DNA of 64,000 nt. It comes from Tannerella sp. (lineage in GTDB: Bacteria > Bacteroidota > Bacteroidia > Bacteroidales > Tannerellaceae). The stretch lies in assembly GCA_031258835.1 (NCBI GenBank), contig JAIRMH010000099.1, forward strand, positions 7,923 to 71,922. Direction: 5' to 3'. A program made the position numbers and the translations under genes. The notes beneath the pieces were generated by a model. It was not told the DNA's origin. It made no database searches and saw only the letters and a list, made by a program, of their open reading frames with translations. Positions 1 through 53,834 of the stretch are shown here, in pieces; position 1 is the first letter of the stretch; each line of letters begins with the position of its first letter.

Positions 1-226
1 GAGAAAATTCAATTCCGTCCAATCCTAAATCAGCTAAATTATTTATTGCCTCGGAAAGAGGAATGTTACGTTTCTTGAAGTCACGCCATAAAATCCAACC
101 CATCGCCCATTGAAGATTTTTCCCCTTTTGTGAAATCTTCCTGTTTGAGCAAGACGCAAAACCGACCCCTGCAACCATTGACAGCGAACCGACAGCAACA
201 TTTTGTATAAAAGATCTTCTATTCAT
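1..226 (-). CDS. Tat-exported (lipo)protein, sugar-phosphate isomerase/epimerase (xylose-isomerase-like TIM barrel); 5' part only, runs off window edge
   Basis: Manual translation from ATG at 226: MNRRSFIQNVAVGSLSMVAGVGFASCSNRKISQKGKNLQWAMGWILWRDFKKRNIPLSEAINNLADLGLDGIEFS. It has a twin-arginine motif, a lipobox-like FASC, and the xDLGxDGIE motif typical of the AP-endonuclease-2/xylose-isomerase-like barrel. Not in the ORF track because it is truncated. Confidence 0.7.
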   Translation of the reverse strand, partial: MNRRSFIQNVAVGSLSMVAGVGFASCSNRKISQKGKNLQWAMGWILWRDFKKRNIPLSEAINNLADLGLDGIEFS

Positions 227-254: not shown

Positions 255-1259
255 TTATTTAGGATCTACTTCCCTGTATGCCTGTATAATGGCCATTTCA
301 CCTTCTTTTCCGGGCTTGCTCTGCCCGTGTTCAAGGGAAATCACTTCGTCGTAGTTGCGATTATGCAGCCATTGAAAAATAAATTTGTAGTTGATTTCAC
401 CTGATGTCGGTTCATTGCGTCCGGGGTTATCGCCGACATGTATAGACCCGATATAATCCCAACAATCGATCATGTTAGGGATAAGATTCCCTTCCGTGAC
501 TTGCTGATGATAGAGGTCGTTCACCATTTTGCAACACGGGTGATTTACGGCTACGCAAATCATTTTGGCCTGCGTGGTGCGCGTAAGGAAAACACCAGGA
601 TGATTCACGTACGTATTCAGCGGTTCCATCACTAATTCCAAACCGGCATCACCGACAATATCACAGCAAAACCGCAAATTCTCAATAACATTGGCAGTCT
701 GATATTCCACATGCAATTTAGGATCAATATTACCCAATACGATCAGGCCTTTATTGATACCCGTACGCTTCTGAACTTCAAGCCCTGCCAGCATTTTCTC
801 TTTCAACATGTTCCTGACGGAATCATTTTTAAGAACGAAATGCGTACCTCCGGCTGTTTTCAGGGAAAACTGTCCCAGTTCGAGACCCCGTTTATGGGCT
901 TCATTGGCTATTTTTTCCTGCTCCTGCACCGGACGTTCTATCAGCCCAAGATCATAAGCCGCACGAAAACCCTGGTCGGCAATAAACCTGAGGTTATCGA
1001 CAGTATCCTGCCCGGCGTTCTGTTTAAACATGCCCAACGCAGGGGCATATTTCAATGTAAATTTAGCGCCGTTCGACACCCTTGCACTTGCACTCGCATT
1101 CGCATTCGCATTTGCACTCGCACCCGCACCCGCACTTGCATTCGCACTCGCATTTGCACTCGCATTCGCCACCGCTGGCTCACCCCCGTTCATTCCTGCG
1201 CCAAGAGATGCTAAAGCGGCGCTGCCGACAATTCTTTTGATAAAATTTCTACGTTCCAT
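255..1259 (-). CDS. Tat-exported hydroxypyruvate-isomerase-like (xylose-isomerase-like TIM barrel) protein
   Basis: MERRNF Tat motif; Hyi-family motifs [37 protein letters not shown]. Confidence 0.85.
1084..1167. repeat. 14 x 6-bp in-frame tandem repeat (GCAYYY) encoding an Ala-X linker after the Tat signal
   Basis: gcactt gcactc gcattc gcattc gcattt gcactc gcaccc gcaccc ...; protein [28 protein letters not shown]. Confidence 0.95.
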
Positions 1260-1267
1260 ATTCCTGT

Positions 1268-2008
1268 TTATTTATTAACATTAAAAATCATTGTTATCCC
1301 CACTAAAAGTAATGAAGCAAACACTACTTTCTTGAAAAGCGTTTCACTTACCCTTTTATGTGTAACTTCGCCTGCTATTATCCCCAAAATCAAAAAAGGG
1401 AACAAGAATAACAGTTCACATCCGACAGTTTCGGTTATTTTCTTTTCCATAAAATATTGTATTAACAATACGGAATTCAGCATTGCCCATAAAAGGCACA
1501 TTGTTGCGCGAAATTGCCCTTTGTCCGTTATTTTGTGCGCCGAATAAAGCACGATCAAAGGACCTCCAGTAGCAAACGCTCCGTGAACGACTCCTCCGAA
1601 AAACAGATAGAGATATCGCGGGACAACAGTCCGTACACGTTGTTGGAAAGACGCCTTATACAGTTGTATGGCTGCCGTAAATATGATGAATATCCCCAAT
1701 ATCCTCATTAAGGTATTACCATCCATACTTTTGAACATTAGCATCCCTGCCGGCATCCCCGCCCCGGCTAAACCTGCAATGATCCCCAATTGTTTCCAAT
1801 TGATTTCTCTCGATTTGGCGATTGCAAAATACGCAGCCAATATCCATGCAAAAATCGAAAGAATGATTTTGGAATGTTCCATATCTCCGTCCAAAAGCAT
1901 AAGTACAAACGGAAACGCCAACACCGTACAGCCGAATCCCGTCACGGCTTCAAGCGCATGAGTGAGTAATATTACGATTCCTGCAGAAAATAACTGTAAC
2001 GTATCCAT
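1268..2008 (-). CDS. TauE/SafE family sulfite/sulfonate exporter (putative isethionate exporter)
   Basis: 246-aa polytopic membrane protein, VTGFGC and GAFATGGP motifs; context of SQ-pathway genes. Confidence 0.85.
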   Translation of the reverse strand: MDTLQLFSAGIVILLTHALEAVTGFGCTVLAFPFVLMLLDGDMEHSKIILSIFAWILAAYFAIAKSREINWKQLGIIAGLAGAGMPAGMLMFKSMDGNTLMRILGIFIIFTAAIQLYKASFQQRVRTVVPRYLYLFFGGVVHGAFATGGPLIVLYSAHKITDKGQFRATMCLLWAMLNSVLLIQYFMEKKITETVGCELLFLFPFLILGIIAGEVTHKRVSETLFKKVVFASLLLVGITMIFNVNK

Positions 2009-2011
2009 TCC

Positions 2012-3286
2012 TTATATTTTAAGCGTTAACAAGGAAACAATCATCGCCTCATCCATATCGACAATATTATTTTTCATCTTCGGATCGTCAAGCGACTTGC
2101 GAAACAAATCCCCTATCCTGCCGACTTCCAAACAGATATTTAAATCGCCGAAAGTAAACGGCAAAGAGAATTTCTTTTTCAATGCGACGATTCTGTCCAG
2201 CAATGCCGCAGTCATGCAATCGTCGTCGCGTTCTCCCGATGCCGCAGCAGTCATGCGATCGTCATTGTGTTCTCCCGATACTGCCGCAGTCATGCGATCG
2301 TCATTGTGTTCTCCCGATGCCGCGGTCATACCGGCGTCGCTTTCTCCGAACAGTTCCCTGCCGATTTTTGCAAGTCGCCGTTTCGTAGCCACATTCACAA
2401 CATTGAGCCGGAAGACGTCTTCAAGTAGAAACGCACAAGCCGTTCCGTGCGGGACATGCCACTCTTCGGAGAGGATAAACGACAAGGCATGAACTGCCGC
2501 CGTGCCCGTCATGCTGAAAGCCGCTCCTGCCATACATGCTCCTTCGAGCATCTCGGCGCGACCATCCGTCGACCCCGACAATGAACTATCGTAGGCGCGT
2601 TCCATCCATTTCAGGATATGTACGGCGCTTTCTACAGCCACCCTGTCGGTTAGCGGATTGGCGTTTTTGTTCCATATTGTTTCCAAAGCATGCGAAAGCG
2701 CGTCAAAAGCAGTCGAAGCCGTGAGAGCCGGAGGAAGCGTTTCGACATATTCAGTAACAAGAACGGCGATATCTGCCTGCATCAAAGGATGCCCTAACGT
2801 ATATTTGCGTCCGTCGTGCGACGTATAAACGCCCACTTTCGTTACCTCCGAGCCGGTTCCTGCAGTAGTAGGAATAAGTATCAGTTTAACATCCCGTTTT
2901 TCTATTTTTCTTGACGGCATTGCTCCCAGATAATCATCCGGTTCGCCGCCATTACTTAATATGACAGCCACGCCTTTGGCCGCATCCATCGAACTGCCGC
3001 CACCAATACCGATCACCACATTAACAGGCTTGCCTTTCATCGCGTTGACCATTGCCGTCACGTCACGGGTCTTCGGATCAGGAAACACCTTGTCTTGAAT
3101 TTCTACGTTACGTAATTTTTGCAACCCTTTGAGCATGGCGTCGCGCGGCGGCAAGGGATAATTGTCGATAATCATGCATGGATAAGCGCTCTCCCCGCCA
3201 ACGTAAAAGATGAGCTTGTCCATATCCTGTGGCGATAAATGTCCGACACGGATAATTTTAGTGGTCGTTACAGCTTGTTCAAACAT
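2012..3286 (-). CDS. Iron-containing (group III) alcohol dehydrogenase, putative sulfoacetaldehyde reductase (SqwF-like)
   Basis: GGGSSMDAAK, PTTAGTGSEVT, DALSHALE, HALS...HVPHG metal ligands; the specific function is inferred from context. Confidence 0.85.
   Translation of the reverse strand: MFEQAVTTTKIIRVGHLSPQDMDKLIFYVGGESAYPCMIIDNYPLPPRDAMLKGLQKLRNVEIQDKVFPDPKTRDVTAMVNAMKGKPVNVVIGIGGGSSMDAAKGVAVILSNGGEPDDYLGAMPSRKIEKRDVKLILIPTTAGTGSEVTKVGVYTSHDGRKYTLGHPLMQADIAVLVTEYVETLPPALTASTAFDALSHALETIWNKNANPLTDRVAVESAVHILKWMERAYDSSLSGSTDGRAEMLEGACMAGAAFSMTGTAAVHALSFILSEEWHVPHGTACAFLLEDVFRLNVVNVATKRRLAKIGRELFGESDAGMTAASGEHNDDRMTAAVSGEHNDDRMTAAASGERDDDCMTAALLDRIVALKKKFSLPFTFGDLNICLEVGRIGDLFRKSLDDPKMKNNIVDMDEAMIVSLLTLKI
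2204..2329. repeat. About 3.3 copies of a 36-39-bp in-frame tandem repeat inside the Fe-ADH gene
   Basis: Repeated gcagtcatgcgatcgtcattgtgttctcccgat; protein MTAASGEHNDDR MTAAVSGEHNDDR MTAAASGERDDDC MTAA. Confidence 0.95.
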
Positions 3287-3298
3287 TGATTTACCGGT

Positions 3299-3781
3299 TT
3301 ATTTATACAATTCCGTTTCCATGTCGCCGATCTCTTTCACACAGTTCGCCAGGAATATTTTCCAGTCATCGTCAACGCCATCTGTGAAATTTGTTTCCAG
3401 CCACTTATCAATCAGTAGAAATGCATGTTTTGGCGGTGTCAACCATTCGCCGAACACTACGACATTACAATTATTAATAGCTTTCGCTTGCTGTGCAGTG
3501 AAAGTATTGAACACATGCACAGGATATACGCCTTTGAACTTGGCCGCTGTGATAACGCTGCCTGCGCCCGTACCGCAAATAATAACGCCGCGCCGGTATT
3601 TTTTTTCAGACACTCCGCGAGCGACTGCTGCGGCCGCTTTATGGTAAGGCACAAACTCCCCGTCCGTTTTCATGCCGACGTCATCCGCCTCAAATCCCTT
3701 GTTTTCCAGGTAAGCAATCAATTCCCCCTTCAAGGTCAGACCCGCGCGGGTACTACCTATAATAATTTTTTCTTTTCCCAT
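3299..3781 (-). CDS. RpiB/LacAB family isomerase, putative sulfoerythrose isomerase (SqwI-like)
   Basis: ICGTGAG catalytic motif and NNCNV. The N-terminal GSTRAG replaces canonical GxDHxG, suggesting altered specificity. Confidence 0.85.
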   Translation of the reverse strand: MGKEKIIIGSTRAGLTLKGELIAYLENKGFEADDVGMKTDGEFVPYHKAAAAVARGVSEKKYRRGVIICGTGAGSVITAAKFKGVYPVHVFNTFTAQQAKAINNCNVVVFGEWLTPPKHAFLLIDKWLETNFTDGVDDDWKIFLANCVKEIGDMETELYK

Positions 3782-3799
3782 TCCAATTCTTTTTAAAAG

Positions 3800-4741
3800 T
3801 TATTTTTTCTTTCCCAGTAATTTTATTGCATTAGAAGCCAAATTCTCGGCTGTCAGGCCAAAACGTTGTTGCAGGTATTTTTGTTCGCCAACCTCTCCAA
3901 ATTCATCGTTTACTCCTATACGTTTCATTAACGTCGGATAATTTTCCGAAAGGACTTCCGCTACCGCAGAACCTAATCCGTTTATTATCTGGTGATTTTC
4001 AAAAGTAAGCAGTGCGCCCGTTTTCTTTGCATACCGCAATACAAGTTCTTCGTCAATCGGTTTAACAGTATGCATGTCAATCACAGCTGCTGATATACCT
4101 TTACCGGCAAGTATTTCGCTTGCCTTCAACGCTTCATTCACGGGAATAACGCCGATAGCAATTAATGCGACATCGCCGCCGTCCTTCAACACCTTCCCTT
4201 TTCCCAATTCAAACGTCTCATTTTCAGAATATATAACCGGAGCGGGCTTACGAAACAGCCGCATATAGGTACAACCCTGATGATAAGCGCTTTTAACCGT
4301 CAACATCTTCAACGATACCGGATCGCACGGTTCAAAAACGACTAATTCGGGTATATTCCTCATGATGCCCAAATCTTCAAAAGGCATGTGTGTCCCCCCA
4401 TTATATGCAGCCGATATACCAGGGTCTGTGCCTGTTAGCTTAACATTACGCCGTGCATAATTGGCCGAAATAAAAAATTGATCGTACGTTCTTCGGGAAG
4501 CAAAACATCCAAAGGTATCGGCAAAGGGAATCTTTCCTCCCGCCGAAAGACCGGCGGCAATCCCCACCATATTGGCTTCCGCCACACCTACATTAAAAGT
4601 ACGTTGCGGAAATTTATTACGGAACGCGGTGGTGCCCGATGCTTTCATCAAATCAGCCTCCAATAACACAATCCGCTCATCTTTTTCCGCAAGTGTCATA
4701 AGTGTCTGAGCATATACCGCTCTCATCTCCAATTGATCCAT
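3800..4741 (-). CDS. Transketolase, C-terminal (pyrimidine-binding) subunit, SqwH-like
   Basis: VGVAEANMVG, NGGTHMPFED, ENHQIINGLGSAVAE; start moved to ATG 4741 (MDQLEMR). Confidence 0.92.
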   Translation of the reverse strand: MDQLEMRAVYAQTLMTLAEKDERIVLLEADLMKASGTTAFRNKFPQRTFNVGVAEANMVGIAAGLSAGGKIPFADTFGCFASRRTYDQFFISANYARRNVKLTGTDPGISAAYNGGTHMPFEDLGIMRNIPELVVFEPCDPVSLKMLTVKSAYHQGCTYMRLFRKPAPVIYSENETFELGKGKVLKDGGDVALIAIGVIPVNEALKASEILAGKGISAAVIDMHTVKPIDEELVLRYAKKTGALLTFENHQIINGLGSAVAEVLSENYPTLMKRIGVNDEFGEVGEQKYLQQRFGLTAENLASNAIKLLGKKK

Positions 4742-4763
4742 CGTTTTTTTCCATGTTAAAAAT

Positions 4764-5588
4764 TCAACTATTGTCAAGCATGACGCAAGCTTCTTGCGCC
4801 ATTTCATATTTCACATTCATATTATGATTATCCAAACGTCTTTCTGCAAAGAATGCACCTTTGCCTTTGATCGTATCAAGAATGATCATCGAAGGTCTGT
4901 ACTGTTCTTTTTTCGCACGTTCGACAGCCATGTCCATATCTTCAAAATCGTGACCATTAACACGCTGGACAAACCATCCGAAAGCGCTCCATTTGGCGTT
5001 CAAGTCTTCTATGTTCATAATGTCGTGCACATAACCGTCAATCTGCATCTTGTTGTAATCGGTGAAAGCTATCAGGTCGTTCAATTTGAAATGTGCTGCG
5101 GCCATCGCTCCTTCCCATATCTGTCCTTCGTTCGATTCGCCGTCGCCAATAATGAGATACACTTTTTTATTGATCCTGTCAAGCCGGTTTGCCAATGCAA
5201 TACCGACAGCCGCCGATATACCCTGTCCCAGCGAACCGGTAGACATGTCGATGCCCGGCGTCCGGTTCATATCACAATGACTGGGCAAATTCGTACCGCC
5301 AACGTTCAAGGTATGCAACCATTCCGTTGGGAAAAATCCCTTTTCCGCCAGGATGCTGTACAAGGCCGGACCGGCATGTCCTTTCGACATCACCAGCTTG
5401 TCGCGTTCTTTTTTGCCGGGGTCTACAGGAGAAACTTCCATGTGACGTTCATACAGCAACGTCAGGATTTCTACCACCGATAAAGCGCCACCTATATGGC
5501 CGACCCCCAAATATCCGATAGCATCAATCGTCATTTTGCGGATTTCTTTCGCTTTCGCTTCCAATCGTTTTATTTCCAATAATTCCAT
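4764..5588 (-). CDS. Transketolase, N-terminal ThDP-binding subunit, SqwG-like
   Basis: GHIGGALS, SKGHAGP, STGSLGQG, GDGESNEG..N ThDP motif. Confidence 0.93.
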   Translation of the reverse strand: MELLEIKRLEAKAKEIRKMTIDAIGYLGVGHIGGALSVVEILTLLYERHMEVSPVDPGKKERDKLVMSKGHAGPALYSILAEKGFFPTEWLHTLNVGGTNLPSHCDMNRTPGIDMSTGSLGQGISAAVGIALANRLDRINKKVYLIIGDGESNEGQIWEGAMAAAHFKLNDLIAFTDYNKMQIDGYVHDIMNIEDLNAKWSAFGWFVQRVNGHDFEDMDMAVERAKKEQYRPSMIILDTIKGKGAFFAERRLDNHNMNVKYEMAQEACVMLDNS

Positions 5589-5602
5589 TTTAATAATTCC
5601 GT

Positions 5603-6268
5603 TTATATCAATATTTTTATATTATCGCCTGTAATGCCCGGCCATGCGCCTTTTTGCATCAAGGGTTCCCTGTCGGGATGAGCAAGCAACCATTTATTGC
5701 GGGCGAACAGATATTTGTCGCCATATTTTGATTTATCATTTTCCAATGGCTCATTAGTGCCGCGCGGCAAAACCACAATACATTTAAAACCTTCGGAACA
5801 TGTTTTGCAAGGGGAAAAATGCAACGTTGTTTCATATAATTGTACGGCAGTATGCTTAGGGACGAAAAACGCTTCCACTTCTCTCGAAAAATAATATCCT
5901 CCTTTTATATCCTGCAAATGTCCCACCAACAGTACGAGATCGGTAACCGCTACGTCAATCTCACTGCCGCGATGATACTCCAGTCCGTTCAAAGTAGAAT
6001 TACGTCCGTTGCAATAACCTGTCTGAACCGGCATTTCACCATAAAACCCATTTTCCAGCAGATTTCTAAGCGGTAAATTTTCCAGTTCCGACACCGATGC
6101 TTTGTATATATTACCTTCTTCTGGAATTGACGTTTCGTTTTCCATGTAATTCAACGCTTCCGTAAAATCATAGTCCGTAATAAGCGTACCATACGCCCGG
6201 AACGATTCATTGCTTACTTCTTTTATCTCAATATGAGCGTTTTTTAGCGCCAGCTTTTCAATGATCAT
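5603..6268 (-). CDS. DUF4867 family protein (SftX/SqvB-like, marker of sulfoglycolysis clusters)
   Basis: GYCNGRNSTLNGLEYHRGSE, LYETTLHFSPC, ARNKWLLAHP motifs. Confidence 0.85.
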   Translation of the reverse strand: MIIEKLALKNAHIEIKEVSNESFRAYGTLITDYDFTEALNYMENETSIPEEGNIYKASVSELENLPLRNLLENGFYGEMPVQTGYCNGRNSTLNGLEYHRGSEIDVAVTDLVLLVGHLQDIKGGYYFSREVEAFFVPKHTAVQLYETTLHFSPCKTCSEGFKCIVVLPRGTNEPLENDKSKYGDKYLFARNKWLLAHPDREPLMQKGAWPGITGDNIKILI

Positions 6269-6291
6269 TGTAAAAGATTTTAATGATTAAA

Positions 6292-7626
6292 CTAATATTC
6301 TTTATGCTCAATACCCCAAAAATTACACATCATCCTTACTTCTTCGGTAATCTCGCCATACGCCGCAACGAAATGAGGCTCCCAGCCGTCGCGGACAAGT
6401 TCGGCTATTTTTGCAGCCGGAGAACCCGAAAGCGGACGAACGGTAAGCGATGTACCACAAAACTTTTGCGGTTCGTCCAGCGCTTGACCTCTCATAGTCA
6501 TCATCCTCAATCCATTCTTATCTTTACCTAAACGAAGTATGGTAACAGCGCCTTGTTTAAGGCCAAATTCCATGGTCGGGCCGATTCTCCGGTTTGGATG
6601 TACTCCGAGGAAAGCGCCTTCGGCTGTCCTCGCCAACGACGTAGCTCCCGCTCCACAGTGCCAGAACACAATGCCACCGCATCTTTCGTCGATAGCGACA
6701 GGATCGCCGAAATATGCGGCGCCGGCTGTCAATTCGGATGCGATATACATGCTTATAGCTCCTCCGATGTCCGTCTCGCATGACGCCGCTATGCCGGCAT
6801 CATTCAACAACGATAATACGGCGCACACCGGAACCCCGTATTCTGTGAAAAAATCCGGCCAACAACGCGACGCAATGCTTTTCACTCCGTTTTGCACGGC
6901 AAACTCCTGGTAAGATTTACGCAACCGGGCATACTTGTCCAGATTTTCGGCCGGTATTGATTCCCATCCCTTAGTCCGCGCTTTCAATTCCGCCAGTTCA
7001 CCTGTAATAGCTTCCGATGCATACGATTTCGCCTGCTTTATGATGTTTGCCGCTTCGGTACGAACGATCCTGACGCCGAGTTTTCCTGCGAGCAGGGCCT
7101 CATCGACATCGCCAAAGCCAAACCCGGCCGGTTGAGAGCCAACAACGCCTATCACAAGGTCAGACATCTTTTTCGTTAATGAGAACGCAAACATCATTTG
7201 CCTGAATTTAACTTCAACAGCCGATTCGTCCGGATTACCTAAAACAAACCTGTAATTATATCCTTGCATGAACAGGCTGTTGCATGCGGAGAAGGCGCCG
7301 GTCAGGGAGTTCAACCTTAACCTGCCACCATCAATAGCAGGTTCGCGTAATGACCAAACGACGACCGGGCAATGAAAACGCCGCGTAATCTCCGACACAA
7401 AATCGCTGCCTATAAACGTAGCGCACTGATAAATTACCAACCCGGGATTATCGACCGTATCCATAAAAACCGATAACATTTCGGGAGAAGTAAGCAATTC
7501 CTGAGGATAGCAAATATCATCAAAAAATCGGTTTAGCAGATTGCACGATCTCCTAAAATTGTTTTCGGCGTCAGCTATTGAAAACGTCGTCCGAGCCAAG
7601 GGCAGAAAAAGTATTTTCGATTTCAT
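6292..7626 (-). CDS. L-fucose/L-arabinose-isomerase-fold protein, putative sulfoquinovose isomerase (SqvD/SftI-like)
   Basis: GGRLRLNSLTGA, RCWPDFF, SCETD, FWHCGAG, VHPNRRIGPTMEFGLK, EPHF motifs. Confidence 0.82.
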   Translation of the reverse strand: MKSKILFLPLARTTFSIADAENNFRRSCNLLNRFFDDICYPQELLTSPEMLSVFMDTVDNPGLVIYQCATFIGSDFVSEITRRFHCPVVVWSLREPAIDGGRLRLNSLTGAFSACNSLFMQGYNYRFVLGNPDESAVEVKFRQMMFAFSLTKKMSDLVIGVVGSQPAGFGFGDVDEALLAGKLGVRIVRTEAANIIKQAKSYASEAITGELAELKARTKGWESIPAENLDKYARLRKSYQEFAVQNGVKSIASRCWPDFFTEYGVPVCAVLSLLNDAGIAASCETDIGGAISMYIASELTAGAAYFGDPVAIDERCGGIVFWHCGAGATSLARTAEGAFLGVHPNRRIGPTMEFGLKQGAVTILRLGKDKNGLRMMTMRGQALDEPQKFCGTSLTVRPLSGSPAAKIAELVRDGWEPHFVAAYGEITEEVRMMCNFWGIEHKEY

Positions 7627-7656
7627 TTTTTTTTGACTTTGTTAAATATGAAAATA

Positions 7657-9024
7657 TCACTGTACCTTACGATTCCTTCGTTGCGCCAACTCTCCTATAA
7701 TCTCGTTATAACGCTTATCCGAAAGTTTGTAACAAAACAACATCACGATAAATGTCGCTACCGCTAAAACGCCGGGGTAGATAAACATAAGTCCCCTGAT
7801 ACCCGTCAATGCCGCAGAGGTCTGCTCCTGATTGGGGATATATCCGGCGACAGCCAATACCACGCCGGGGATGAATCCGGCTATCGCTTGCGAGAATTTA
7901 CGAAAAAAGGTGAAAAATGAGTAAACAAGACCTTCCAGTCGTTTGCCGGTTTTCCATTCACCAAATTCTACAGCATCCGATACGAAAACCCAATTGAGCG
8001 TATTAATGAACGAAGATCCGAAAAAAGCTACGCACGAAAGAACAATAAAATCGAACGTATCATTGGCGAGAAACCATGCCGAAAGATCGGCAATCGCCCA
8101 GATCAGGCAGCCAAGCACATACGTCATCTTTTTACCTGTACGCCTGACTGACAACGGCACAAACGCGACACCGATAAAGACGCATAAAATGCTGAAAAAA
8201 CCCATATACGGCACTATATTAATGTCGTTAAGCGAATACTGGCAATAATAAACCTGTACAGCTAATTTTACATTAAAGGCGGAGAACGTAAACAAATTGA
8301 CCAAACACAAGACCAAAAGAGGCATATTTCGAAAAATAGAAGCAAAGCCTACCTTAAGCGATATTTGCTCCTTTTGCCGTTTTACGTCAACATGCCGTTC
8401 CTTTACATTGGCATAACACGTCAACTGCAAGGCCAAACCGGCAAAGGCGAAAACGGCAGCCGCTACCGTATAGCCGGTCTGCATATTATCGAAAGCGGTA
8501 ACAATCGGCATGAAACCCACAGTAGTCAATAGCAAACCGGTATTGGCTCCCGCCCACCGCATCGAAGCCAAATCGGAACGCTCTACCGTATTGCGCGTCA
8601 TAGCCGGTATCATCGATCCGTAAGGTATATTAAAAATACTGTAAACCGTGCCAAAAGTCATGTATGTGGCAAATGCCCATACCGTACGCCCTGTCAGGTC
8701 GAAATCCGGAGTTGTGAAACTGACTACCGTCATAAGCGAAAGCGGTAACGCGGCATATAGCATAAAAGGCCGGAACTTTCCCCTCTTACCGATATTTTTA
8801 CGGTTATCAATCCATGTACCCACGGCAAGATCGGCAAAACCGTCCCACAATTTTGTAACGAGAAACACTAACCCCGCCGTGGTTGCCGGCAAACCCAATG
8901 AATCGGTATAAAATTTCAGGAGGTAAATCTGCCCCATATCAAAGAGGAAATTATTACCCACATCGCCTAACCCGTAGGAGATCTTTTCTTTAAGAGTTAT
9001 ACCTTTGTTTAGTCCTGCTCCCAT
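7657..9024 (-). CDS. yihO: GPH-family MFS cation symporter, closely resembling the E. coli SQ importer YihO
   Basis: Long stretches shared with YihO/YihP as recalled: YLLKFYTD, RKNIG..GKFRPF.LYAA.P, IFRN.PLLVLC..NL.T..AFN.KLA.QVYY.QY.LNDIN, MGFFS, GEWKTG. Confidence 0.8.
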   Translation of the reverse strand: MGAGLNKGITLKEKISYGLGDVGNNFLFDMGQIYLLKFYTDSLGLPATTAGLVFLVTKLWDGFADLAVGTWIDNRKNIGKRGKFRPFMLYAALPLSLMTVVSFTTPDFDLTGRTVWAFATYMTFGTVYSIFNIPYGSMIPAMTRNTVERSDLASMRWAGANTGLLLTTVGFMPIVTAFDNMQTGYTVAAAVFAFAGLALQLTCYANVKERHVDVKRQKEQISLKVGFASIFRNMPLLVLCLVNLFTFSAFNVKLAVQVYYCQYSLNDINIVPYMGFFSILCVFIGVAFVPLSVRRTGKKMTYVLGCLIWAIADLSAWFLANDTFDFIVLSCVAFFGSSFINTLNWVFVSDAVEFGEWKTGKRLEGLVYSFFTFFRKFSQAIAGFIPGVVLAVAGYIPNQEQTSAALTGIRGLMFIYPGVLAVATFIVMLFCYKLSDKRYNEIIGELAQRRNRKVQ

Positions 9025-9033
9025 ATACTTGCT

Positions 9034-10230
9034 CTATCCCAATTCTTTTACATCGATTACCCTCTTTTCCTGTGCGGAACGAACAGATCCTTCCATTATC
9101 CGAACTACTTGCCGAGCCATGTAACCATCAGGATAAGATTTTTCCTTTCCCTCCAATACCTTTACAAAATGTTTGAATTGTTCAACCACGCCATCTCCTT
9201 CTCTGTTATTAGCGTTCAGCGCTATTTTTTCGGGTTGGGGCAAATCTTGCGGCTTGGGGAATCCGGGAGCGGAACCATACCGTATGTCAAGTATGCCTCC
9301 TCCCATTTGTAACGTGCCGTTGACGGCAAAAAATGTATCCAATGCCGTCGAACCGTAATTGTAAACGTTCCCGCCATAATTCATCAAAGCGCCATTCGCA
9401 TAATAAGCAAGTACACCCGAATGATCGCTCGAATCACGCTTACGCAAAGAGAAGTTATTGACGCCCTGCAAACTGACAACAGAGACCGGCTCGCTGTCGA
9501 ATACCCAATTATTCACATCGATTATATGCGCTCCCATTTCGTAGACAACGCCCCCGCTACGTTTCTGATTTAAACGCCAATACGGAGTGCCTGCCGGATA
9601 TTCGTCGGCATCCGGAACACGCCAATCCCCCCTGAAATCATACAGACTTGATTGCAGTATCTTTCCAACCGGTTTCGCACGTACACACTCTATCAATGTT
9701 TTGTATTCACCTGAATGACGACGCTGATGGCCGATTTGCAAATATCTTCGGGTGCGTTCCGAAACGCCGATAATATCATTACATTCAGACACCGTCAAAG
9801 CTAACGGTTTTTCGCAGAAAACATGCTTGCCCGCTTCCATTGCGGCAATTGCAATCTCTGTGTGCGTGTCGTTTGGAGTGACAATAACAATCGCATCTAT
9901 TTCGCCCATGTCAAACACCTCTTTCATGTTAGCGATAAATTTCGGTTTAACACCGGTTTTAATCAATTGCGCACGCTGTTGCATCTTATGAGGTACAATG
10001 TCGCATAAAACGCTCATTTCAAGTTCGGGAACACTGTTCAATGCACTTATCAACGCCTTGCTGCGGTTCCCGCATCCGATAATGGCCATCTTAAACTTTG
10101 AAGCGGCAACATCTCCTTTCTCGCTGAAAAGATGCTTCGCCATCGACTCGCCGCCCGATAAAATCAAGCCGCCACCGACAAGTCCGCTCGTTGTAATAAA
10201 ATTACGTCTGGTAAAATTTTTCTCTTTCAT
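9034..10230 (-). CDS. Tat-exported Gfo/Idh/MocA family NAD(P)-dependent oxidoreductase
   Basis: TRRNF Tat motif, IIGCGNR Rossmann motif, GKHVFCEKPLA, GGVVYEMGAH. Confidence 0.9.
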   Translation of the reverse strand: MKEKNFTRRNFITTSGLVGGGLILSGGESMAKHLFSEKGDVAASKFKMAIIGCGNRSKALISALNSVPELEMSVLCDIVPHKMQQRAQLIKTGVKPKFIANMKEVFDMGEIDAIVIVTPNDTHTEIAIAAMEAGKHVFCEKPLALTVSECNDIIGVSERTRRYLQIGHQRRHSGEYKTLIECVRAKPVGKILQSSLYDFRGDWRVPDADEYPAGTPYWRLNQKRSGGVVYEMGAHIIDVNNWVFDSEPVSVVSLQGVNNFSLRKRDSSDHSGVLAYYANGALMNYGGNVYNYGSTALDTFFAVNGTLQMGGGILDIRYGSAPGFPKPQDLPQPEKIALNANNREGDGVVEQFKHFVKVLEGKEKSYPDGYMARQVVRIMEGSVRSAQEKRVIDVKELG

Positions 10231-10310
10231 TTCATCTCCTTTTTTAATTCATGGTAAATTCAAACATTATGTATAATCGTAAAAACACATTCCAAATCAA
10301 CAATATAAAT

Positions 10311-10328
10311 TGAAAAATCGATTTTTCA
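10311..10328. promoter_or_regulatory. Perfect 18-bp palindromic LacI-type operator TGAAAAATCGATTTTTCA
   Basis: Exact palindrome with central CG, immediately downstream of the operon -7 promoter element; second copy at 11479. Confidence 0.8.
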
Positions 10329-10335
10329 TGCGCCG

Positions 10336-10343
10336 CAAATATA
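10336..10343 (-). promoter_or_regulatory. Bacteroidota sigma-A -7 element (TATATTTG) of the SQ operon
   Basis: Matches TAnnTTTG on the minus strand about 105 bp upstream of the first ATG; -33 element weak. Confidence 0.6.
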
Positions 10344-10400
10344 TGGTTATTTTTTTGCATACACTATTTTTCTTCATTAAAAAATACGGCATTATATATA

Positions 10401-10429
10401 TTTAACTTTTAGTCGCGCAAAAAGTTAAA
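10401..10429. terminator. AT-rich inverted repeat downstream of the lacI-family gene (possible terminator)
   Basis: TTTAACTTTT-N9-AAAAGTTAAA. Confidence 0.35.
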
Positions 10430-10449
10430 ATAACAATATAAAAACAAGG

Positions 10450-11478
10450 TCAGAATTTATCGGAAACGATTGATGCAGGTAAAACGCAATTGATCTTTTT
10501 ATTTTCTTTTGTTTCGATTTGGTTCAGCAGAATATCAAATGAATGTTTACAAATCTCATACATAGGTTGTTTCACATATGGGATAGAAACGCCTGTCGCT
10601 ACCTCCATCCGGCCAAAACCTACAATTTGCACGTCGGATTGGAGTTTGACGCCCATATTTATCAGGCACCGGCTGGCAAGAGCCGTTATACCGCCTGTCG
10701 CAAAAACAAAGCCGTCCACTCCGGTATTCTTCAATTTTTCCGTTAGAAAATCTGCAATCTTTTCATACTTAAGGCTAAAATAATCAATTTCGCATATCAA
10801 ATTTTCGTCAAAGCTATTATTTGCGGTTAACGCATCTACGAATCCTCTTTTTCTATCTTGAAGATGCATCAGACTTTCTTTATACGATATAAAAGCCAAT
10901 TTCTTACAGCCTTTCCCTATCAATAATTGCGTCGCCATTAGGGTTATTTCATAATTGTTTATAATAACGCGACTGGTGTTCAACGTCTTAAAATAACGGT
11001 CCACATAGACAATCGGAATATCAAGCCCCAATTTTTCAATTTCCTCCTCTTCGATATTAGCGATCGGAACCATGATTACCCCGTCGACCGGCCTGTTTGA
11101 AAGCATATTGAATACGGGAAGCAAACGTTCTTTTTTTTCTCCCGTATTGAGAATTATCAATGCATATCCTTTTGATTCCGCATACTCCTGCAGGTTATAT
11201 GCCATAGCGCCAAAGAAAACATCGGATATATCAGCTATAACCAATGCAATCGTATTGAAGCACCCGGTACGTAACCCCCTGGCAACCACGTTAACCTGAT
11301 AATTCATCTCTTTTGCTGTCATACGGATCTTTTGCGCAAGTTCTTCACCGATTCTGCCTTGCTTCTCCTTGCCATTAAGAACAAACGATACCGTAGAGCG
11401 CGCTACACCCAACTCATCTGCAATACTCTGCATAGAGACTTTCTTTCCCGACGTTTCCCTTTTTTTCGGTTTATCCAT
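10450..11478 (-). CDS. LacI/GalR family transcriptional regulator
   Basis: N-terminal HTH SMQSIADELGVARSTVSFVLNG, YQVNVVARGL hinge, periplasmic-binding-protein-like C-domain. Confidence 0.93.
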   Translation of the reverse strand: MDKPKKRETSGKKVSMQSIADELGVARSTVSFVLNGKEKQGRIGEELAQKIRMTAKEMNYQVNVVARGLRTGCFNTIALVIADISDVFFGAMAYNLQEYAESKGYALIILNTGEKKERLLPVFNMLSNRPVDGVIMVPIANIEEEEIEKLGLDIPIVYVDRYFKTLNTSRVIINNYEITLMATQLLIGKGCKKLAFISYKESLMHLQDRKRGFVDALTANNSFDENLICEIDYFSLKYEKIADFLTEKLKNTGVDGFVFATGGITALASRCLINMGVKLQSDVQIVGFGRMEVATGVSIPYVKQPMYEICKHSFDILLNQIETKENKKINCVLPASIVSDKF

Positions 11479-11492
11479 AAAAATCGATTTTT
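11479..11492. promoter_or_regulatory. Second operator copy AAAAATCGATTTTT abutting the LacI start codon (autoregulation)
   Basis: 14-bp palindrome identical to the core of 10311-10328. Confidence 0.75.
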
Positions 11493-11723: not shown

Positions 11724-11794
11724 TGTTCTATGGTGTAATGGTAAACCGTCAGATTCTGGTCCTGAAATTCAAGGTTCGAATCCTTGTAGAACAA
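11724..11794 (+). tRNA. tRNA-Gln (CTG)
   Basis: Acceptor TGTTCTA/TAGAACA, anticodon loop TT-CTG-GT, T-arm CAAGG-TTCGAAT-CCTTG; D-stem poorly paired. Confidence 0.85.
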
Positions 11795-12058
11795 CTTCTT
11801 AAAAATATTTATGACAAAGGGTATATCTTAATCCAACCTGTGGCCTGCCCATTCAAATAATTATAGGATGTATGGATAGCAAATTCCATAATAATCCCTG
11901 AACAGGAAACGTTGCCATGCTCTGAATATACACTATTAGGTGGCGTGAAACGTTCATTATTCATAACATTATGTACTACGCGGCCATGCCGATTGACAAA
12001 GATTAGTTTGTCTTTATAGAATCTTTTCTGATGCTCCCTGATATAAAAATCCGTTACG

Positions 12059-37818: not shown

Positions 37819-38973
37819 CTAAATATTCGGAATCGCATCACCGCCGGTCGGATTCGCCGGATCGCAGATGGCTACGCCGACTTTCGAGTCTGCACATCCA
37901 TAGTATAGATACCATTTTTGATGATAATATACCAATCCTTCGATAAAAACCGTACCATCCGCATATTGACCGCTTTTCTCAAAGTCAGCCATCGGGCGGA
38001 AGAAGGGAACGTCCAAACGAGCAATGGCTTTATACGGGTCATTCAGGTCGAACAGTACCTGACCGGCGCTGTATGTGCCGGCATTAAACCGCAAGTCGCG
38101 CTTGTCGTTTGTTTGATTCTTTCCGTTGTACAGGAGAAGTATCCCCTTGCCGGTAATCAAAGCAGGAGGCCCACACTCGGTCAGGGCGCTGTCGAAGTAG
38201 CCTTCCCTCGGAAAGATTAACCTCCGTAGTTCATTGTTTGCGTCCAGTACCGGCGTCCAGTGTATCAAATCATCAGATACGGCTGCGGCGACCATTTTTT
38301 CGCCCCAATACATCAGGTATTTGCCATTAACCTTGGCTATTACCTGTCTGCCATCCTTAATTTTCGTAACGATAGACCCGGATTTGCAGGCCATATCTTT
38401 AAACCGTCCGTTAAAGGCGTCGAAAAATGCGGGACCGTGCTTCTCCCATGTCAGCAAATCGCGGGATGTTGCTACTGCCAGACGCGGGACTTTCCTGTTC
38501 CATGAAGTGTACATCATCACATACAGACCATCTTCGGTCACTGCCACGCGAGGGTCTTCACATCCGCCTGGCCATTCCCATTCTTTAGCATTGTCTTCGG
38601 CCGGAAACATTACCGGTTCGCTGCGGCGTTTCATCCGTATACCGTCTACGGATTCAGCCAGTCCGATACGTGAAGTTCTTTTTCCTATTCCCGTCGCCGA
38701 ATTGTCTTCCGCCCGATACAAGACCTGTATCCTGTCATCTTTGACAACGGCCGCAGGATTGAAGACGTCGCTCTCTTCCCATTTGACCTGTTTTTTCTGC
38801 ATTGGGCAATAAAAACGGCTTTTAGCCTCCGGCGCAATGACCGGATTCGCGCCTTCGGGCCGCACGAAACCACCTAAAGCCCAATCAGGTAAAATATTTT
38901 CGTTCCGGTCTTTCTGTGCAAAGAGAGGAAAAGACAACAGGAGACAAATAGTCGTTATTTCCAAATATTTCAT
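37819..38973 (-). CDS. Secreted GH130 enzyme, BT3780-like beta-1,2-mannosidase
   Basis: LPDWALGGF, FNPAA, LYRAED, EWPGGCEDPR, DSALTECGPPA, EKSGQY.DGTVFIEG, YYGCADS closely match BT3780 as recalled; SpI signal. Confidence 0.85.
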   Translation of the reverse strand: MKYLEITTICLLLSFPLFAQKDRNENILPDWALGGFVRPEGANPVIAPEAKSRFYCPMQKKQVKWEESDVFNPAAVVKDDRIQVLYRAEDNSATGIGKRTSRIGLAESVDGIRMKRRSEPVMFPAEDNAKEWEWPGGCEDPRVAVTEDGLYVMMYTSWNRKVPRLAVATSRDLLTWEKHGPAFFDAFNGRFKDMACKSGSIVTKIKDGRQVIAKVNGKYLMYWGEKMVAAAVSDDLIHWTPVLDANNELRRLIFPREGYFDSALTECGPPALITGKGILLLYNGKNQTNDKRDLRFNAGTYSAGQVLFDLNDPYKAIARLDVPFFRPMADFEKSGQYADGTVFIEGLVYYHQKWYLYYGCADSKVGVAICDPANPTGGDAIPNI

Positions 38974-39106
38974 TGCATTTGTTCTTTTTTGGGTACAATG
39001 TACCAGTACATTATTTTTCATATTACTCTCGCTATCGAACAGTTTTGATGAGTATAAAGATCCTTTTCAAATTCTGTTTTTGATTAATATTTGCATAAAA
39101 AACAAA

Positions 39107-39802
39107 TCATACTGTTACCGTTAAAATAACGCTGTAATTCACGTTTCCATCTACTTTAGCGCCAATACGCACATAAATCCGGTTTCCATTCGCCTGGATT
39201 TTGTAATGATTATTCTTGTACGTCTGGTTATTATTCAGATCAAATTTTATCTCGCCCGAAGTTTCGGTAACGGTAATTTTCTCTGCATAATTGGCTACGC
39301 CGTCATCAACACCCGGAGCAAAATTCCAATAACCATAGACGTCCGACACTTTAAAAGATGAAGAAGTCGTATTTACCGCATATTGAACAGTGACAACTCC
39401 ACCCGACACGGTTGCAGATGCGTTAATACGGGCATAAGGAAGCGCTTTCAAATCATAAGAAGTCTGGCCTTTTACGGTTACATTTCCTTTACACGGGGAG
39501 ACAAACGGGCCATTGACAACTATTTCATAATCGCCGTTAAATACTTGAGTGTTTTCATACGTCCCATCGTATTTTGCATAAAAATCAACTGATTTTGTCG
39601 CATCCGTATTCAGTTCATACAAATTGATGATGGTTCCTGTTGAACCTTGGACCGGCAGAGGAACAGGTTCGTTTGTTTCCGCATCCAGAATTTTTCCCGT
39701 TATACCTCCGTCCGGTGCGTCATAGTTATCAAGCTCATTCAGGCAACCGGTCAGTAAGAACATGATTGCCATTGATGTAAGATATAAATTTATTTTTTTC
39801 AT
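39107..39802 (-). CDS. DUF3823 family PUL lipoprotein (surface glycan-binding-like)
   Basis: Lipobox LTGC, DNYDAPD, G.ILDAETNEPV, DGTYENTQVFNGDY, RIYVRIGA. Confidence 0.8.
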   Translation of the reverse strand: MKKINLYLTSMAIMFLLTGCLNELDNYDAPDGGITGKILDAETNEPVPLPVQGSTGTIINLYELNTDATKSVDFYAKYDGTYENTQVFNGDYEIVVNGPFVSPCKGNVTVKGQTSYDLKALPYARINASATVSGGVVTVQYAVNTTSSSFKVSDVYGYWNFAPGVDDGVANYAEKITVTETSGEIKFDLNNNQTYKNNHYKIQANGNRIYVRIGAKVDGNVNYSVILTVTV

Positions 39803-39825
39803 ATCAGTTTTGTTTAATTCGTTTG

Positions 39826-41670: not shown

Positions 41671-41687
41671 AATCGTAATTTTAAAGG

Positions 41688-45137: not shown

Positions 45138-45138
45138 C

Positions 45139-46167: not shown

Positions 46168-46253
46168 ATATTAAGAGGACAGCCCGGAAGAAGGAAGGGA
46201 TAGTATAAAAGTGAGATTTAACACTTAAGGAGGCGAAATTTAACATTTTACTT

Positions 46254-46820: not shown

Positions 46821-46922
46821 TCCATACGAATACGGGACAAAAGTATATTTTTTCCGGTAAATAAACAAAAGAAACACCGATTACAGTGAGCAGTGAGGCC
46901 GTTGATCAGTAGTGATATTGTT

Positions 46923-48611: not shown

Positions 48612-48613
48612 AA

Positions 48614-50227: not shown

Positions 50228-50266
50228 ACGATTTATTTTTACATTAATATATTCATAACGATAAAA

Positions 50267-53674: not shown

Positions 53675-53772
53675 ATATTTATACTGTCAAATTTAATTAA
53701 TCAGGTTATTTTAATAGCTTAATTGATTCATTACCACTCGTCAGATGAGATTTTCGGACAGGTAATTTTTTT
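53674..53772 (+). ncRNA. Putative cis-antisense sRNA between fecR and susC (DonS-like)
   Basis: Plus-strand -7-like TATATTTA overlapping the susC ATG; imperfect hairpin ATTACC...GGTAAT followed by a T-run at 53730-53772. Confidence 0.35.
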
Positions 53773-53834
53773 GATTCTTTACAATTTGTTTTCCATAGGC
53801 AATTCGTTTTTTAAAAGTGAACACTAACATTGTT

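What the first reader, a model, noticed from the sequence alone, without database searches (positions are those of the whole stretch)
1268..11492. Complete sulfoglycolytic transketolase (sulfo-TK) gene set in a Bacteroidales genome
Seen: one co-oriented operon with a YihO-like GPH importer, fucose-isomerase-fold isomerase, DUF4867, split transketolase, divergent RpiB, Fe-ADH and TauE exporter, under a LacI. Established: this is the enzyme set of the sulfo-TK pathway described in Clostridium sp. MSTE9 (SqvD, SqwGH, SqwI, SqwF: SQ -> sulfofructose -> sulfoerythrose/sulfoerythrulose -> sulfoacetaldehyde -> isethionate). DUF4867 and TauE also mark Bacillus sulfo-transaldolase clusters, and YihO is the E. 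coli SQ importer. Inference: this organism ferments SQ and excretes isethionate, which can feed sulfide-producing bacteria. To my knowledge sulfoglycolysis has been characterised mainly in Proteobacteria, Bacillota and Actinomycetota, so a Bacteroidales sulfo-TK would extend it to a dominant gut lineage.
Basis: partly seen in the sequence, partly recalled or inferred. Interest (0 to 1): 0.88.

Follow-up and report, generated by a model that had tools for sequence, protein, structure and literature searches.

The report
Bacteroidales sulfoquinovose locus lacking known sulfoquinovosidases
A termite-gut Bacteroidales bacterium and a few relatives carry a gene cluster that likely ferments the plant sulfur-sugar sulfoquinovose to isethionate by the known transketolase route, but instead of either known sugar-releasing enzyme they carry predicted exported oxidoreductase and TIM-barrel genes that would free the sugar by stepwise oxidation and elimination.

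Summary
The genes are there, co-oriented and tightly packed. The sulfo-TK reading holds (about 85%). The isomerase nests inside the SqvD/SftI radiation. The transketolase has the published sulfonate signature (R-A-D-R): 10 of 10 orthologues, 0 of 21 other transketolase-like proteins. The importer is 49% identical to E. coli YihO. Fe-ADH and TauE are sisters of spirochaete sulfo-TK proteins. Two corrections. First, the trait is rare (about 11 of 183 family genomes, 0 of 400 across the order) and comes from termite gut, so it is not a trait of a dominant gut lineage. No YihQ (0 of 10 genomes) or true SqgA (0 of 6) was found. Instead a Tat-type Gfo/Idh/MocA oxidoreductase, two TIM-barrel proteins and a SusC/SusD pair travel with the core; relatives add a second Gfo and DUF1080. 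That is the layout of stepwise 3-keto glycoside cleavage. The Gfo keeps four SqgA substrate residues but lacks Tyr136, Lys172 and His321. Best reading: a sulfoquinovose PUL with a third glycoside-release route (45%); untested. The scan found sulfo-TK before on other DNA (Clostridia, Thermotogota, a spirochaete), none in Bacteroidales. New variant of a known kind.

The parts
10450..11478 (-). LacI-family repressor, likely regulator of the locus
   Evidence: Pfam LacI + Peripla_BP; orthologues at 62-94% beside the cluster in 8 of 17 locus sets, many of the others cut by contig ends
9034..10230 (-). Gfo/Idh/MocA NAD oxidoreductase with twin-arginine-type N-terminus (TRRNF); SqgA-related but not GH188; candidate SQ-glycoside 3-dehydrogenase
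   Evidence: 24% to a true SqgA and best SqgA match in 6 of 6 genomes; keeps K107/R166/E189/H193 equivalents, lacks Y136/K172/H321
7657..9024 (-). GPH cation symporter, likely SQ importer (YihO/SftA type)
   Evidence: 49% over 447 aa to E. coli YihO, next paralogue 26%; 65% to the GPH beside YihQ in L065; tree
6292..7626 (-). SqvD/SftI-type isomerase, likely SQ to sulfofructose
   Evidence: only NCBIfam hit NF048012, 433.5 bits; nested in SqvD tree; keeps 98 of 114 conserved positions
5603..6268 (-). DUF4867 (SqvB/SftX), function unknown, proposed ring-opening helper
   Evidence: PF16161 E 7e-78; 43-55% to most YihQ-adjacent homologues
4764..5588 (-). Split transketolase, N subunit (SqwG-like)
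   Evidence: PF00456; 51-61% to other SQ-cluster TK-N
3800..4741 (-). Split transketolase, C subunit (SqwH-like) with R7, A34, D106, R164 signature
   Evidence: the start at 4741 (313 aa) fits homologue lengths; the longest ORF starts at 4807
3299..3781 (-). RpiB/LacAB-family isomerase (SqwI-like), likely sulfoerythrose to sulfoerythrulose
   Evidence: PF02502; groups with SQ-cluster RpiBs apart from housekeeping RpiB
2012..3286 (-). Fe-ADH (SqwF-like), likely sulfoacetaldehyde reductase; has a 3 x 39-bp in-frame insert
   Evidence: PF00465; D195/H199/H266/H280 invariant; sister to spirochaete sulfo-TK ADHs, support 100; repeat
1268..2008 (-). TauE/SafE exporter, likely isethionate export
   Evidence: PF01925; sister to spirochaete sulfo-TK TauE, support 100
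255..1259 (-). TIM barrel 1 with RR-type N-terminus; Hyi/epimerase type (E211, D248, H274, E310 region); candidate keto-sugar isomerase/epimerase
   Evidence: orthologues in 8 of 183 family genomes, all 8 carrying the TK orthologue
1..226 (-). 5' part of TIM barrel 2 (contig C77:7219-8148); IolE/3-keto-glycoside-lyase type; candidate lyase/hydratase. SusC/SusD follow at C77:666-5807, outside the window
   Evidence: orthologues in 9 of 183 family genomes, all 9 carrying the TK orthologue; SusC/D

Best explanation
This co-oriented gene cluster is likely a sulfoquinovose (SQ) utilisation locus: a predicted SusC/SusD pair would import an SQ glycoside, predicted periplasmic enzymes would cleave it by oxidation at C3 and elimination, and the cytoplasmic genes would likely run the known sulfo-transketolase pathway to isethionate. 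Steps: (1) SusCD uptake of SQ-glycerol or a related glycoside (inferred from linkage). (2) Gfo 9034-10230 oxidises C3; TIM barrel 2 eliminates the aglycone and rehydrates, with DUF1080 and a second Gfo where present; the 3-keto-SQ is reduced back by the Gfo (inferred by analogy with BT2156-2159, AL1-4 and P2B11). (3) The GPH symporter imports SQ (inferred; close to YihO). (4) The isomerase gives sulfofructose; the transketolase removes C2 onto G3P; the RpiB homologue converts sulfoerythrose to sulfoerythrulose; the transketolase removes a second C2; the Fe-ADH reduces sulfoacetaldehyde; TauE exports isethionate (inferred from homology and signature residues). Two xylulose-5-phosphate go to the housekeeping transketolase/RpiB on contig C109 (genes shown). 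Shown here: gene content, order, co-occurrence, residues. No activity is shown. Core pathway about 0.85; this entry route, jointly with the core, about 0.45.
For: Core: isomerase clade of 15 Bacteroidales rows (support 100) lies between Bacillales SftI that pass NF048012 and clostridial/spirochaete SqvD, apart from a paralogue group of 3 (FastTree). 16 non-Bacteroidales SqvD score 347-497 bits on NF048012, 13 of them next to YihQ; the window scores 433.5, the non-SQ paralogue 115. TK signature (S to A, H to D; PMC11659671): 10 of 10 family orthologues, 18 of 18 TK-C from non-Bacteroidales-clade SQ loci, 0 of 21 other TK/DXS-like rows. All blastn hits shown in E. coli are yihO (6 rows shown of 381); 49% protein identity. 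No kinase in the cluster; no SqwD/SqwKL, SF-transaldolase or SLA-reductase match in G000; the only glycyl-radical enzyme found is pyruvate formate-lyase. Entry: YihQ model over cut-off in 0 of 10 cluster genomes against 5 of 5 positive controls; YihQ in 0 of 10 Bacteroidales loci against 50 of 70 others. True SqgA in 0 of 6; best match is the cluster Gfo each time. Gfo, TIM1 and TIM2 orthologues occur in 10, 8 and 9 of 183 family genomes; 9 of 10, 8 of 8 and 9 of 9 also have the TK orthologue. G134, G183 and G030 have Gfo + 2 TIM + Gfo2 + DUF1080 in one run with the core. SusD orthologues at 66% or more occur in 8 genomes, 7 with the core, and lie inside the operon in G134. The P2B11 system (2 Gfo + 2 TIM, no DUF1080) cleaves sulfoquinovosides slowly in vitro (bioRxiv 2024.03.25.586180).
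Against: No biochemistry, expression or growth data. NF048012 is below its cut-off of 700, and no SqwF/SarD model is met (SarD 136 of 700). MSTE9 proteins were not compared directly. G000's contig lacks Gfo2 and DUF1080 (paralogues at 53% and 63% lie on other contigs). In the published systems DUF1080 is the alpha-lyase, and plant SQ glycosides are alpha-linked. TIM2 is closer to IolE and Art22 (Z 25) than to the AL1/BT1 lyases (Z 22.5-22.8). TIM1 looks like an epimerase with no needed role. The R166 equivalent is not specific: many unrelated Gfo rows have it. The structural ranking of SqgA is tied within 1 Z with other Gfo proteins. The genomes are kin and mostly incomplete MAGs, so co-occurrence may be one inherited block. 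SqgH-type GH31 was not tested. Signal peptides were judged by eye.
Confidence: 0.45

Rival explanations
1. Sulfo-TK core as above, but the Gfo is itself a one-protein NAD+-dependent sulfoquinovosidase, a divergent periplasmic sister of GH188; the TIM barrels are accessory.
For: Gfo sits directly before the importer (or before SusCD) in every locus that shows it. It is the best SqgA match in 6 of 6 genomes. SqgA structures fill 5 of the top 6 VIA rows. Atlas feature neighbours carry the GH109 C-terminal family (a lead only). Sequence intermediates with EKxCH and GHHG-like motifs exist.
Against: Y136, K172 and H321 of SqgA are replaced (Q169, P206, no His); R166/L170/K172 are 96-98% conserved in GH188 (PMC11465081). 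Identity is 24% against about 50% within the family. The TIMs co-occur strictly.
Confidence: 0.2
2. Sulfo-TK core, but the exported module does not cleave SQ glycosides: it converts another sulfo-sugar or epimer (for example sulfofucose, via 3-keto oxidation and 4-epimerisation) into SQ, or serves a co-occurring substrate; SQ release is left to other microbes or to an unrecognised GH31.
For: TIM1's solved relatives include 3-keto-D-glucoside 4-epimerase 6wn6 (E 2e-9). TIM2 is IolE-like. Sulfo-TK Caproiciproducens lack both SQases (PMC13219744). A non-YihQ GH31 lies beside the cluster in 2 loci and G000 has a 73% orthologue on C237.
Against: That GH31 lacks the YihQ QDW..R..SFG.R stretch and was not found in 3 of 3 other cluster genomes, one 100% complete (no positive control in that call). 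DUF1080 and Gfo2, both typical of glycoside cleavage, adjoin the TIMs in the most complete genomes.
Confidence: 0.2
3. The locus is not for a sulfo-sugar: a kinase-free transketolase route for another unphosphorylated or 6-substituted hexose.
For: All family models are below cut-off. DUF4867 with fucose isomerase occurs mostly in non-SQ clusters, and a 14-member DUF4867 cluster with RpiB/TK/Fe-ADH was filed as pentose phosphate (PMC11968277). The Bacteroidales proteins are their own clade on long stems. A->S and D->H swaps are known to shift TK specificity in general, not only toward sulfonates.
Against: Six independent parts (isomerase, TK signature, RpiB, Fe-ADH, TauE, YihO-like importer) each have their nearest non-Bacteroidales relatives in SQ loci, mostly beside YihQ. 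No FGGY kinase, unlike the non-SQ DUF4867 clusters.
Confidence: 0.1

Closest known systems
Reductive sulfo-TK pathway of Clostridium sp. MSTE9 (Liu et al. 2021; known here only through PMC9594981, PMC11659671, PMC12890257 passages)
   Same: SqvD-, SqvB-, SqwG-, SqwH-, SqwI-, SqwF-like genes and an exporter; TK signature residues; no kinase; predicted product isethionate.
   Different: No YihQ; GPH symporter rather than ABC transporter; LacI regulator; SusC/SusD; Tat-type Gfo and TIM-barrel genes; phylum Bacteroidota.
Spirochaete sulfo-TK loci (L040 Treponema, L033/L052 Sphaerochaetaceae; Neosphaerochaeta in PMC13219744)
   Same: Same order TK-N, TK-C, RpiB, Fe-ADH, TauE; highest non-Bacteroidales identities (TK-C 65%, TK-N 61%, Fe-ADH 38-41%, TauE 42%); Fe-ADH and TauE are sister clades.
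   Different: Those loci use YihQ (2 of 3 shown) and ABC or tripartite transporters. Direction of any transfer was not tested.
Stepwise 3-keto glycoside cleavage clusters BT2156-2160, AL1-4 and P2B11 (bioRxiv 2024.03.25.586180)
   Same: Gfo/Idh/MocA dehydrogenases + TIM-barrel + DUF1080 with Tat/lipoprotein-type N-termini; P2B11 has 2 Gfo + 2 TIM and cleaves sulfoquinovosides slowly.
   Different: Only distant sequence likeness (BT_2158 model 66 of 750 bits; TIM2 to AL1 E 6e-7). Those clusters are broad-specificity and not tied to a sulfoglycolytic pathway.
GH188 SqgA NAD+-dependent sulfoquinovosidase (PMC10755693; 8QC2-8QC8)
   Same: Fold (Z 34.0, rmsd 2.7 over 329 residues); K107, R166, E189, H193 equivalents; place in a YihQ-less SQ cluster.
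   Different: 17-24% identity; lacks Y136, L170, K172, H321; has a twin-arginine-type leader.

Membership tests
sulfo-TK pathway cluster | SqvD/SftI-type SQ isomerase | tested here: met
   Nested in the SqvD tree; 98 of 114 conserved positions against 47 for the paralogue
NCBIfam NF048012 SftI equivalog | score at or above 700 bits | tested here: not met
   433.5; but 16 other SqvD, 13 beside YihQ, also fail (347-497) and only 2 Bacillales pass, so the cut-off marks the Bacillus subgroup
sulfo-TK pathway cluster | split transketolase with R-A-(F)-D-R head-group site | tested here: met
   R7, A34, D106, R164 against S and H in 6YAK; 10 of 10 orthologues, 0 of 21 controls. The Phe position was not mapped.
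sulfo-TK pathway cluster | RpiB-family SqwI next to the TK | tested here: met
sulfo-TK pathway cluster | terminal sulfoacetaldehyde enzyme (SqwF or SqwD/KL) and exporter | tested here: inconclusive
   Fe-ADH and TauE present and sister to spirochaete sulfo-TK copies; no specific model met (SarD 136 of 700); MSTE9 SqwF not available for comparison
sulfo-TK pathway cluster | GH31 YihQ or GH188 SqgA in or near the cluster | tested here: not met
   published sulfo-TK genomes also lack both, so this does not exclude the pathway
sulfo-TK pathway cluster | SQ-dependent isethionate production | not testable with these tools
   needs culture or enzymes
GH188 (SqgA) | sulfonate triad R166/L170/K172 and catalytic Y136, H193, H321 | tested here: not met
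   R166 and H193 kept; Y136, L170, K172, H321 not (alignment at 24% identity)
stepwise 3-keto glycoside cleavage cluster | Gfo dehydrogenase(s) + TIM lyase and/or DUF1080, exported | tested here: met
   Gfo + 2 TIM in G000; plus Gfo2 + DUF1080 (PF06439) in G134, G183, G030; export signals by eye only
stepwise 3-keto glycoside cleavage cluster | TIM barrel is a 3-keto-glycoside 1,2-lyase (His-x-His, Asp, His, Glu site) | tested here: inconclusive
   HPH, DTGH, HxKD, VEQD invariant, shared with IolE; IolE/Art22 rank above AL1/BT1
polysaccharide utilisation locus | SusC/SusD pair linked to catabolic genes | tested here: met
   C77:666-5807, 66-79% to pairs inside or next to the cluster in G134, G010, G086, G196, G013; not found in G030 or G183 (6 candidates scored per genome)

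The most novel reading that the evidence does not exclude
This is the first sulfoglycolytic PUL in Bacteroidota, and it holds a third way into SQ catabolism: a multi-enzyme, periplasmic oxidation-elimination-hydration sulfoquinovosidase built around a Gfo family that is a sister of GH188. The Gfo + TIM pairs inside YihQ-less SQ clusters of Chlorohelix (L247) and Thermobacillus (L051) suggest the same logic recurs in other phyla, which would fill the known gap of SQ clusters that lack both YihQ and SqgA and mean yihQ/sqgA surveys miss a class of degraders.
Probability: 0.4. Interest if true: 0.8.

Novelty: new variant of a known kind. Interest (0 to 1): 0.62.

Why it matters
Surveys of SQ degraders key on yihQ and sqgA, and the rumen study asks outright whether YihQ/SqgA-less sulfo-TK bacteria hold an unknown sulfoquinovosidase. 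This locus names concrete candidates that can be tested with PNP-SQ in vitro. It also extends sulfoglycolysis to Bacteroidota and to termite guts, with SusCD-type capture. Two carriers have essentially complete genomes (G134, G183: 100% complete), so a growth test may be possible if they are cultured.

Tried and rejected
PDB sequence search with the isomerase: no hit. Metagenome scan with the Gfo alignment was swamped by a generic motif: 2 of 64 parts scanned, 1 orthologue among 80 loci, so Gfo contexts outside the family and the named MAGs (for example Prolixibacteraceae orthologues at 61%) stay unknown. No RNA holder listed. Promoter/terminator scan at chance level (29 against 26.5 sites). 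DUF4867 tree does not separate SQ from non-SQ copies; only one non-SQ row. TK-C tree was the quick version and leaves the deep forks open; no donor or direction of transfer is claimed. Chimeric contig: rejected, because orthologous clusters recur in separate Bacteroidales assemblies and depth is even. Recent transfer: GC and GC3 match rpoB/rpoC. Sulfoacetate variant: no SqwD/KL match. The E. coli control did not pass the YihQ cut-off, so a separate positive control was run. A literature search with five broad terms returned noise. No complex prediction was sent, as no binding claim is made. 'Flavobacterium sp. K172', source of FlSqgA, is by my recall an Arthrobacter-type organism, so I did not count it as a Bacteroidota precedent (recalled; one search shows its SqgA is very close to the Arthrobacter one).

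Full report
Observation. Eleven ORFs from 255 to 11478 lie on the minus strand. Pfam names them AP_endonuc_2 TIM barrel, TauE, Fe-ADH, LacAB_rpiB, transketolase C, transketolase N, DUF4867, Fucose_iso_C (weak), MFS_2, GFO_IDH_MocA and LacI. Gaps are 3-30 bp from 255 to 10230, and 219 bp before LacI. The contig goes on to the left with a second TIM barrel, two small ORFs and a SusC/SusD pair (C77:666-8148). To the right lie tRNA-Gln and rpoC/rpoB. G000 is an 86% complete, 4.9% contaminated assembly. The one run holding the DNA (0.93 of words) is on record as termite gut metagenome. The rest of the window has SusC/D, FecR and ECF genes typical of Bacteroidota (read by eye), and the nearest named clusters are MAGs titled Tannerella sp., Bacteroidales and Dysgonomonadaceae.

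Conservation. The isomerase fetched 80 loci (best 80 of 87). Ten Bacteroidales loci (58-86%) keep the order Gfo, GPH, isomerase, DUF4867, TK-N, TK-C as far as their contigs reach (L008 lacks DUF4867); five continue with some or all of RpiB, Fe-ADH, TauE, TIM. In four genomes where that second block is not adjacent it was found elsewhere as a block; in a fifth it was not found. Five pairs of named loci and family handles share identical DNA, so the two sets are not independent. In the whole family (183 genomes) orthologues were found for Gfo in 10, TK-C in 10 (70-100%, next best 39% or less), DUF4867 in 7, TIM1 in 8, TIM2 in 9; 11 genomes in 4 of 19 genera in all. In 400 genomes drawn across the order, Gfo was found in 0 (only 4 candidates scored per genome) and DUF4867 in 2, neither in such a cluster. 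The locus is rare, and its flanks differ between genomes.

Is the core sulfo-TK? Isomerase: its only NCBIfam hit is SftI (433.5 of 700). Of 28 isomerases scanned, 16 non-Bacteroidales SqvD score 347-497, two Bacillales pass, seven Bacteroidales score 425-464, two outliers 254-272 and G000's paralogue 115. In a 77-row FastTree the Bacteroidales clade (100) sits inside the SqvD/SftI radiation. The window keeps 98 of 114 positions conserved in 58 non-Bacteroidales rows; the paralogue keeps 47. E284, D308 and H418 fit the FucI-type metal site (role recalled). Transketolase: PMC11659671 reports S383A and H466D in SF transketolases. The window has A34 and D106 where 6YAK has S and H, as do 18 of 18 TK-C from other SQ loci and 10 of 10 family orthologues; 0 of 21 control rows have both (11 split TK-C, 10 DXS-like; the best 30 loci from 130 matching genomes, plus one). 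G000 has a separate housekeeping TK with S and H, and an RpiB. Importer: 49% to E. coli YihO and YihP. Fe-ADH and TauE are sister to Treponema/Sphaerochaetaceae copies, which have the same five-gene order. No sulfoacetate branch, SF transaldolase or isethionate lyase was found in G000, which fits export of isethionate; the genome is incomplete. Against: no specific SqwF model is met, DUF4867 is not SQ-specific, and the MSTE9 proteins could not be compared.

The missing gateway. Three YihQ queries find only 21-29% partial GH31 matches in G000. The YihQ model is over cut-off in 0 of 10 cluster genomes (best 159 of 553 bits) and in 5 of 5 controls. A true SqgA from a Zymomonas plasmid SQ cluster (E 4e-102 to 8QC2) finds as best hit the cluster Gfo, at 24-27%, in G000 and five other genomes. 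Aligned, the Gfo family keeps K141, R200, E231 and H235 (SqgA K107, R166, E189, H193: C3-OH, sulfonate, C4-OH, C3-OH contacts) but has Q169 for Y136, P206 for K172 and no H321. An AlphaFold model (pLDDT 74.6) ranks SqgA structures first but tied with other Gfo proteins. None of the best 150 representatives carries the SqgA EHRxPF motif. So it is SqgA-related, not GH188. What it keeps serves binding and C3 oxidation; what it lacks serves elimination (inference). The missing chemistry has candidates in the same operon. TIM2 resembles IolE and the AL1/BT1 3-keto-glucoside lyases, TIM1 resembles Hyi and 3-keto-glucoside 4-epimerase, and in G134, G183 and G030 Gfo2 and DUF1080 follow. Gfo, TIM1 and TIM2 begin with RRxF motifs (read by eye). 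The preprint on AL/BT and P2B11 shows this set hydrolyses glycosides by oxidation, elimination and hydration, and that P2B11 slowly cleaves sulfoquinovosides. The SusC/SusD pair is 68-79% identical to a pair inside the operon in G134 and next to it in G010, G086, G196, G013. SusD orthologues at 66% or more occur in 8 of 183 genomes, 7 with the core; a 50-53% tier occurs in 9 genomes without it. Against this reading: G000's contig lacks Gfo2 and DUF1080; a non-YihQ GH31 adjoins the cluster in two loci, though it lacks the YihQ motif and was not found in three other carriers; and kin share blocks.

What is in print. Seen as passages: PMC9594981, PMC12890257 (lists sulfo-TK for Firmicutes, Spirochaetes, Thermotogae, Tenericutes; 0 'bacteroid'), PMC11659671, PMC12330013 (type strains of Bacteroides, Phocaeicola and Alistipes lack SQ pathways), PMC13436972 (bloom Bacteroidota have scattered homologues), PMC10755693, PMC12780224. 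PMC13372026: passages, section 22 and supplement rows; all 11 sulfo-TK genomes in Table S9 are Bacillota_I (10, 75, 79, 82). PMC13219744: passages and places 1-32 of 61 for 'Bacteroid' in the supplement. Its Table S19 assigns a few 'SqgA reads' to Bacteroidales, among them genus BNXB01, the record prefix of L004, whose best SqgA match is this Gfo; this may be an unremarked trace of the family. PMC11968277: passages, section 6 and all 25 'Bacteroid' places in its DUF4867 table, none a Tannerellaceae entry. PMC11465081: part 1 of 2. bioRxiv 2024.03.25.586180: parts 1-2 of 4 and passages; supplement not seen. Liu 2021 and Chu 2023 were not read; their genome lists may bear on novelty. Searches found no report of a Bacteroidales sulfoglycolytic cluster or an SQ PUL (138: 0 papers); the library lacks most subscription papers. 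The scan's own notes hold seven sulfo-TK findings in other phyla and nothing like this Gfo.

Verdict. The pathway is known; this is a new variant: new phylum, PUL-type capture and a candidate third glycoside-release route. Core 0.85; stepwise entry with core 0.45; one-enzyme Gfo 0.2; other role for the exported set 0.2; non-sulfo substrate 0.1. Interest 0.62.

Noticed in passing
L247:12576-14483 (Chlorohelix plasmid) and L051:8043-9978 (Thermobacillus): A Gfo + TIM-barrel pair (36% and 41% to each other) sits inside SqvD clusters that show no YihQ; the Chlorohelix Gfo is not GH188 and not an orthologue of the window's Gfo.
   Followed up: partly
L010:11459-12583, L011:3587-4702, L051:6818-7930, L015:1-663: A 370-aa protein with no Pfam hit recurs next to SqvD or the TK in four loci that show neither YihQ nor DUF4867; candidate unknown SQ-pathway enzyme.
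   Followed up: partly
L009:8888-9709: A BD-FAE alpha/beta esterase is inserted between DUF4867 and TK-N; possible sulfolipid deacylase. G000 has a 62% homologue on C166.
   Followed up: partly
L245:3649-17084 (Zymomonas mobilis plasmid): Plasmid-borne SQ cluster: PfkB kinase, class II aldolase, epimerase, SqvD-like isomerase, true SqgA, TonB receptor.
   Followed up: partly
L067:3865-18857: A record titled uncultured Bacteroides sp. has a YihQ + ABC transporter + ROK sulfo-TK cluster at 34% GC whose proteins group with Bacillota/Spirochaetota, not with this clade; likely misbinned or mislabelled.
   Followed up: partly
window 2208-2323 and 1084-1169: In-frame tandem repeats: 3 x 39 bp in the Fe-ADH (absent from 7 homologues) and a 6-bp repeat giving an Ala/Asn/Ser linker after the TIM1 leader.
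   Followed up: yes
L132 (G000:C10:3756-8776): Second sugar cluster with a lone TK-C, FGGY kinase, fucose-isomerase paralogue and permease; TK lacks the SQ signature. Substrate unknown.
   Followed up: no
window 11724-11795: tRNA-Gln lies between the LacI gene and rpoC; relatives have the cluster in other contexts, so this may be an insertion site.
   Followed up: no
L246:8818-12621 (Persicobacter plasmid): A Bacteroidota (Cytophagia) plasmid has kinase + distant SqvD-like isomerase (26%) + aldolase-like genes before a TonB receptor; possibly another sulfo-sugar locus.
   Followed up: no
window 37819-55588: Two ECF-sigma/FecR-controlled SusC/SusD loci, one with a sulfatase-like ORF (46923-48623) and one with a glycosidase-like ORF (37819-39021), read by eye.
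   Followed up: no
L112:16597-18849, L007:9875-11110: A 750-aa protein family (83% between the two) lies near the cluster in two genomes; G000 has a 67% homologue on C125.
   Followed up: no
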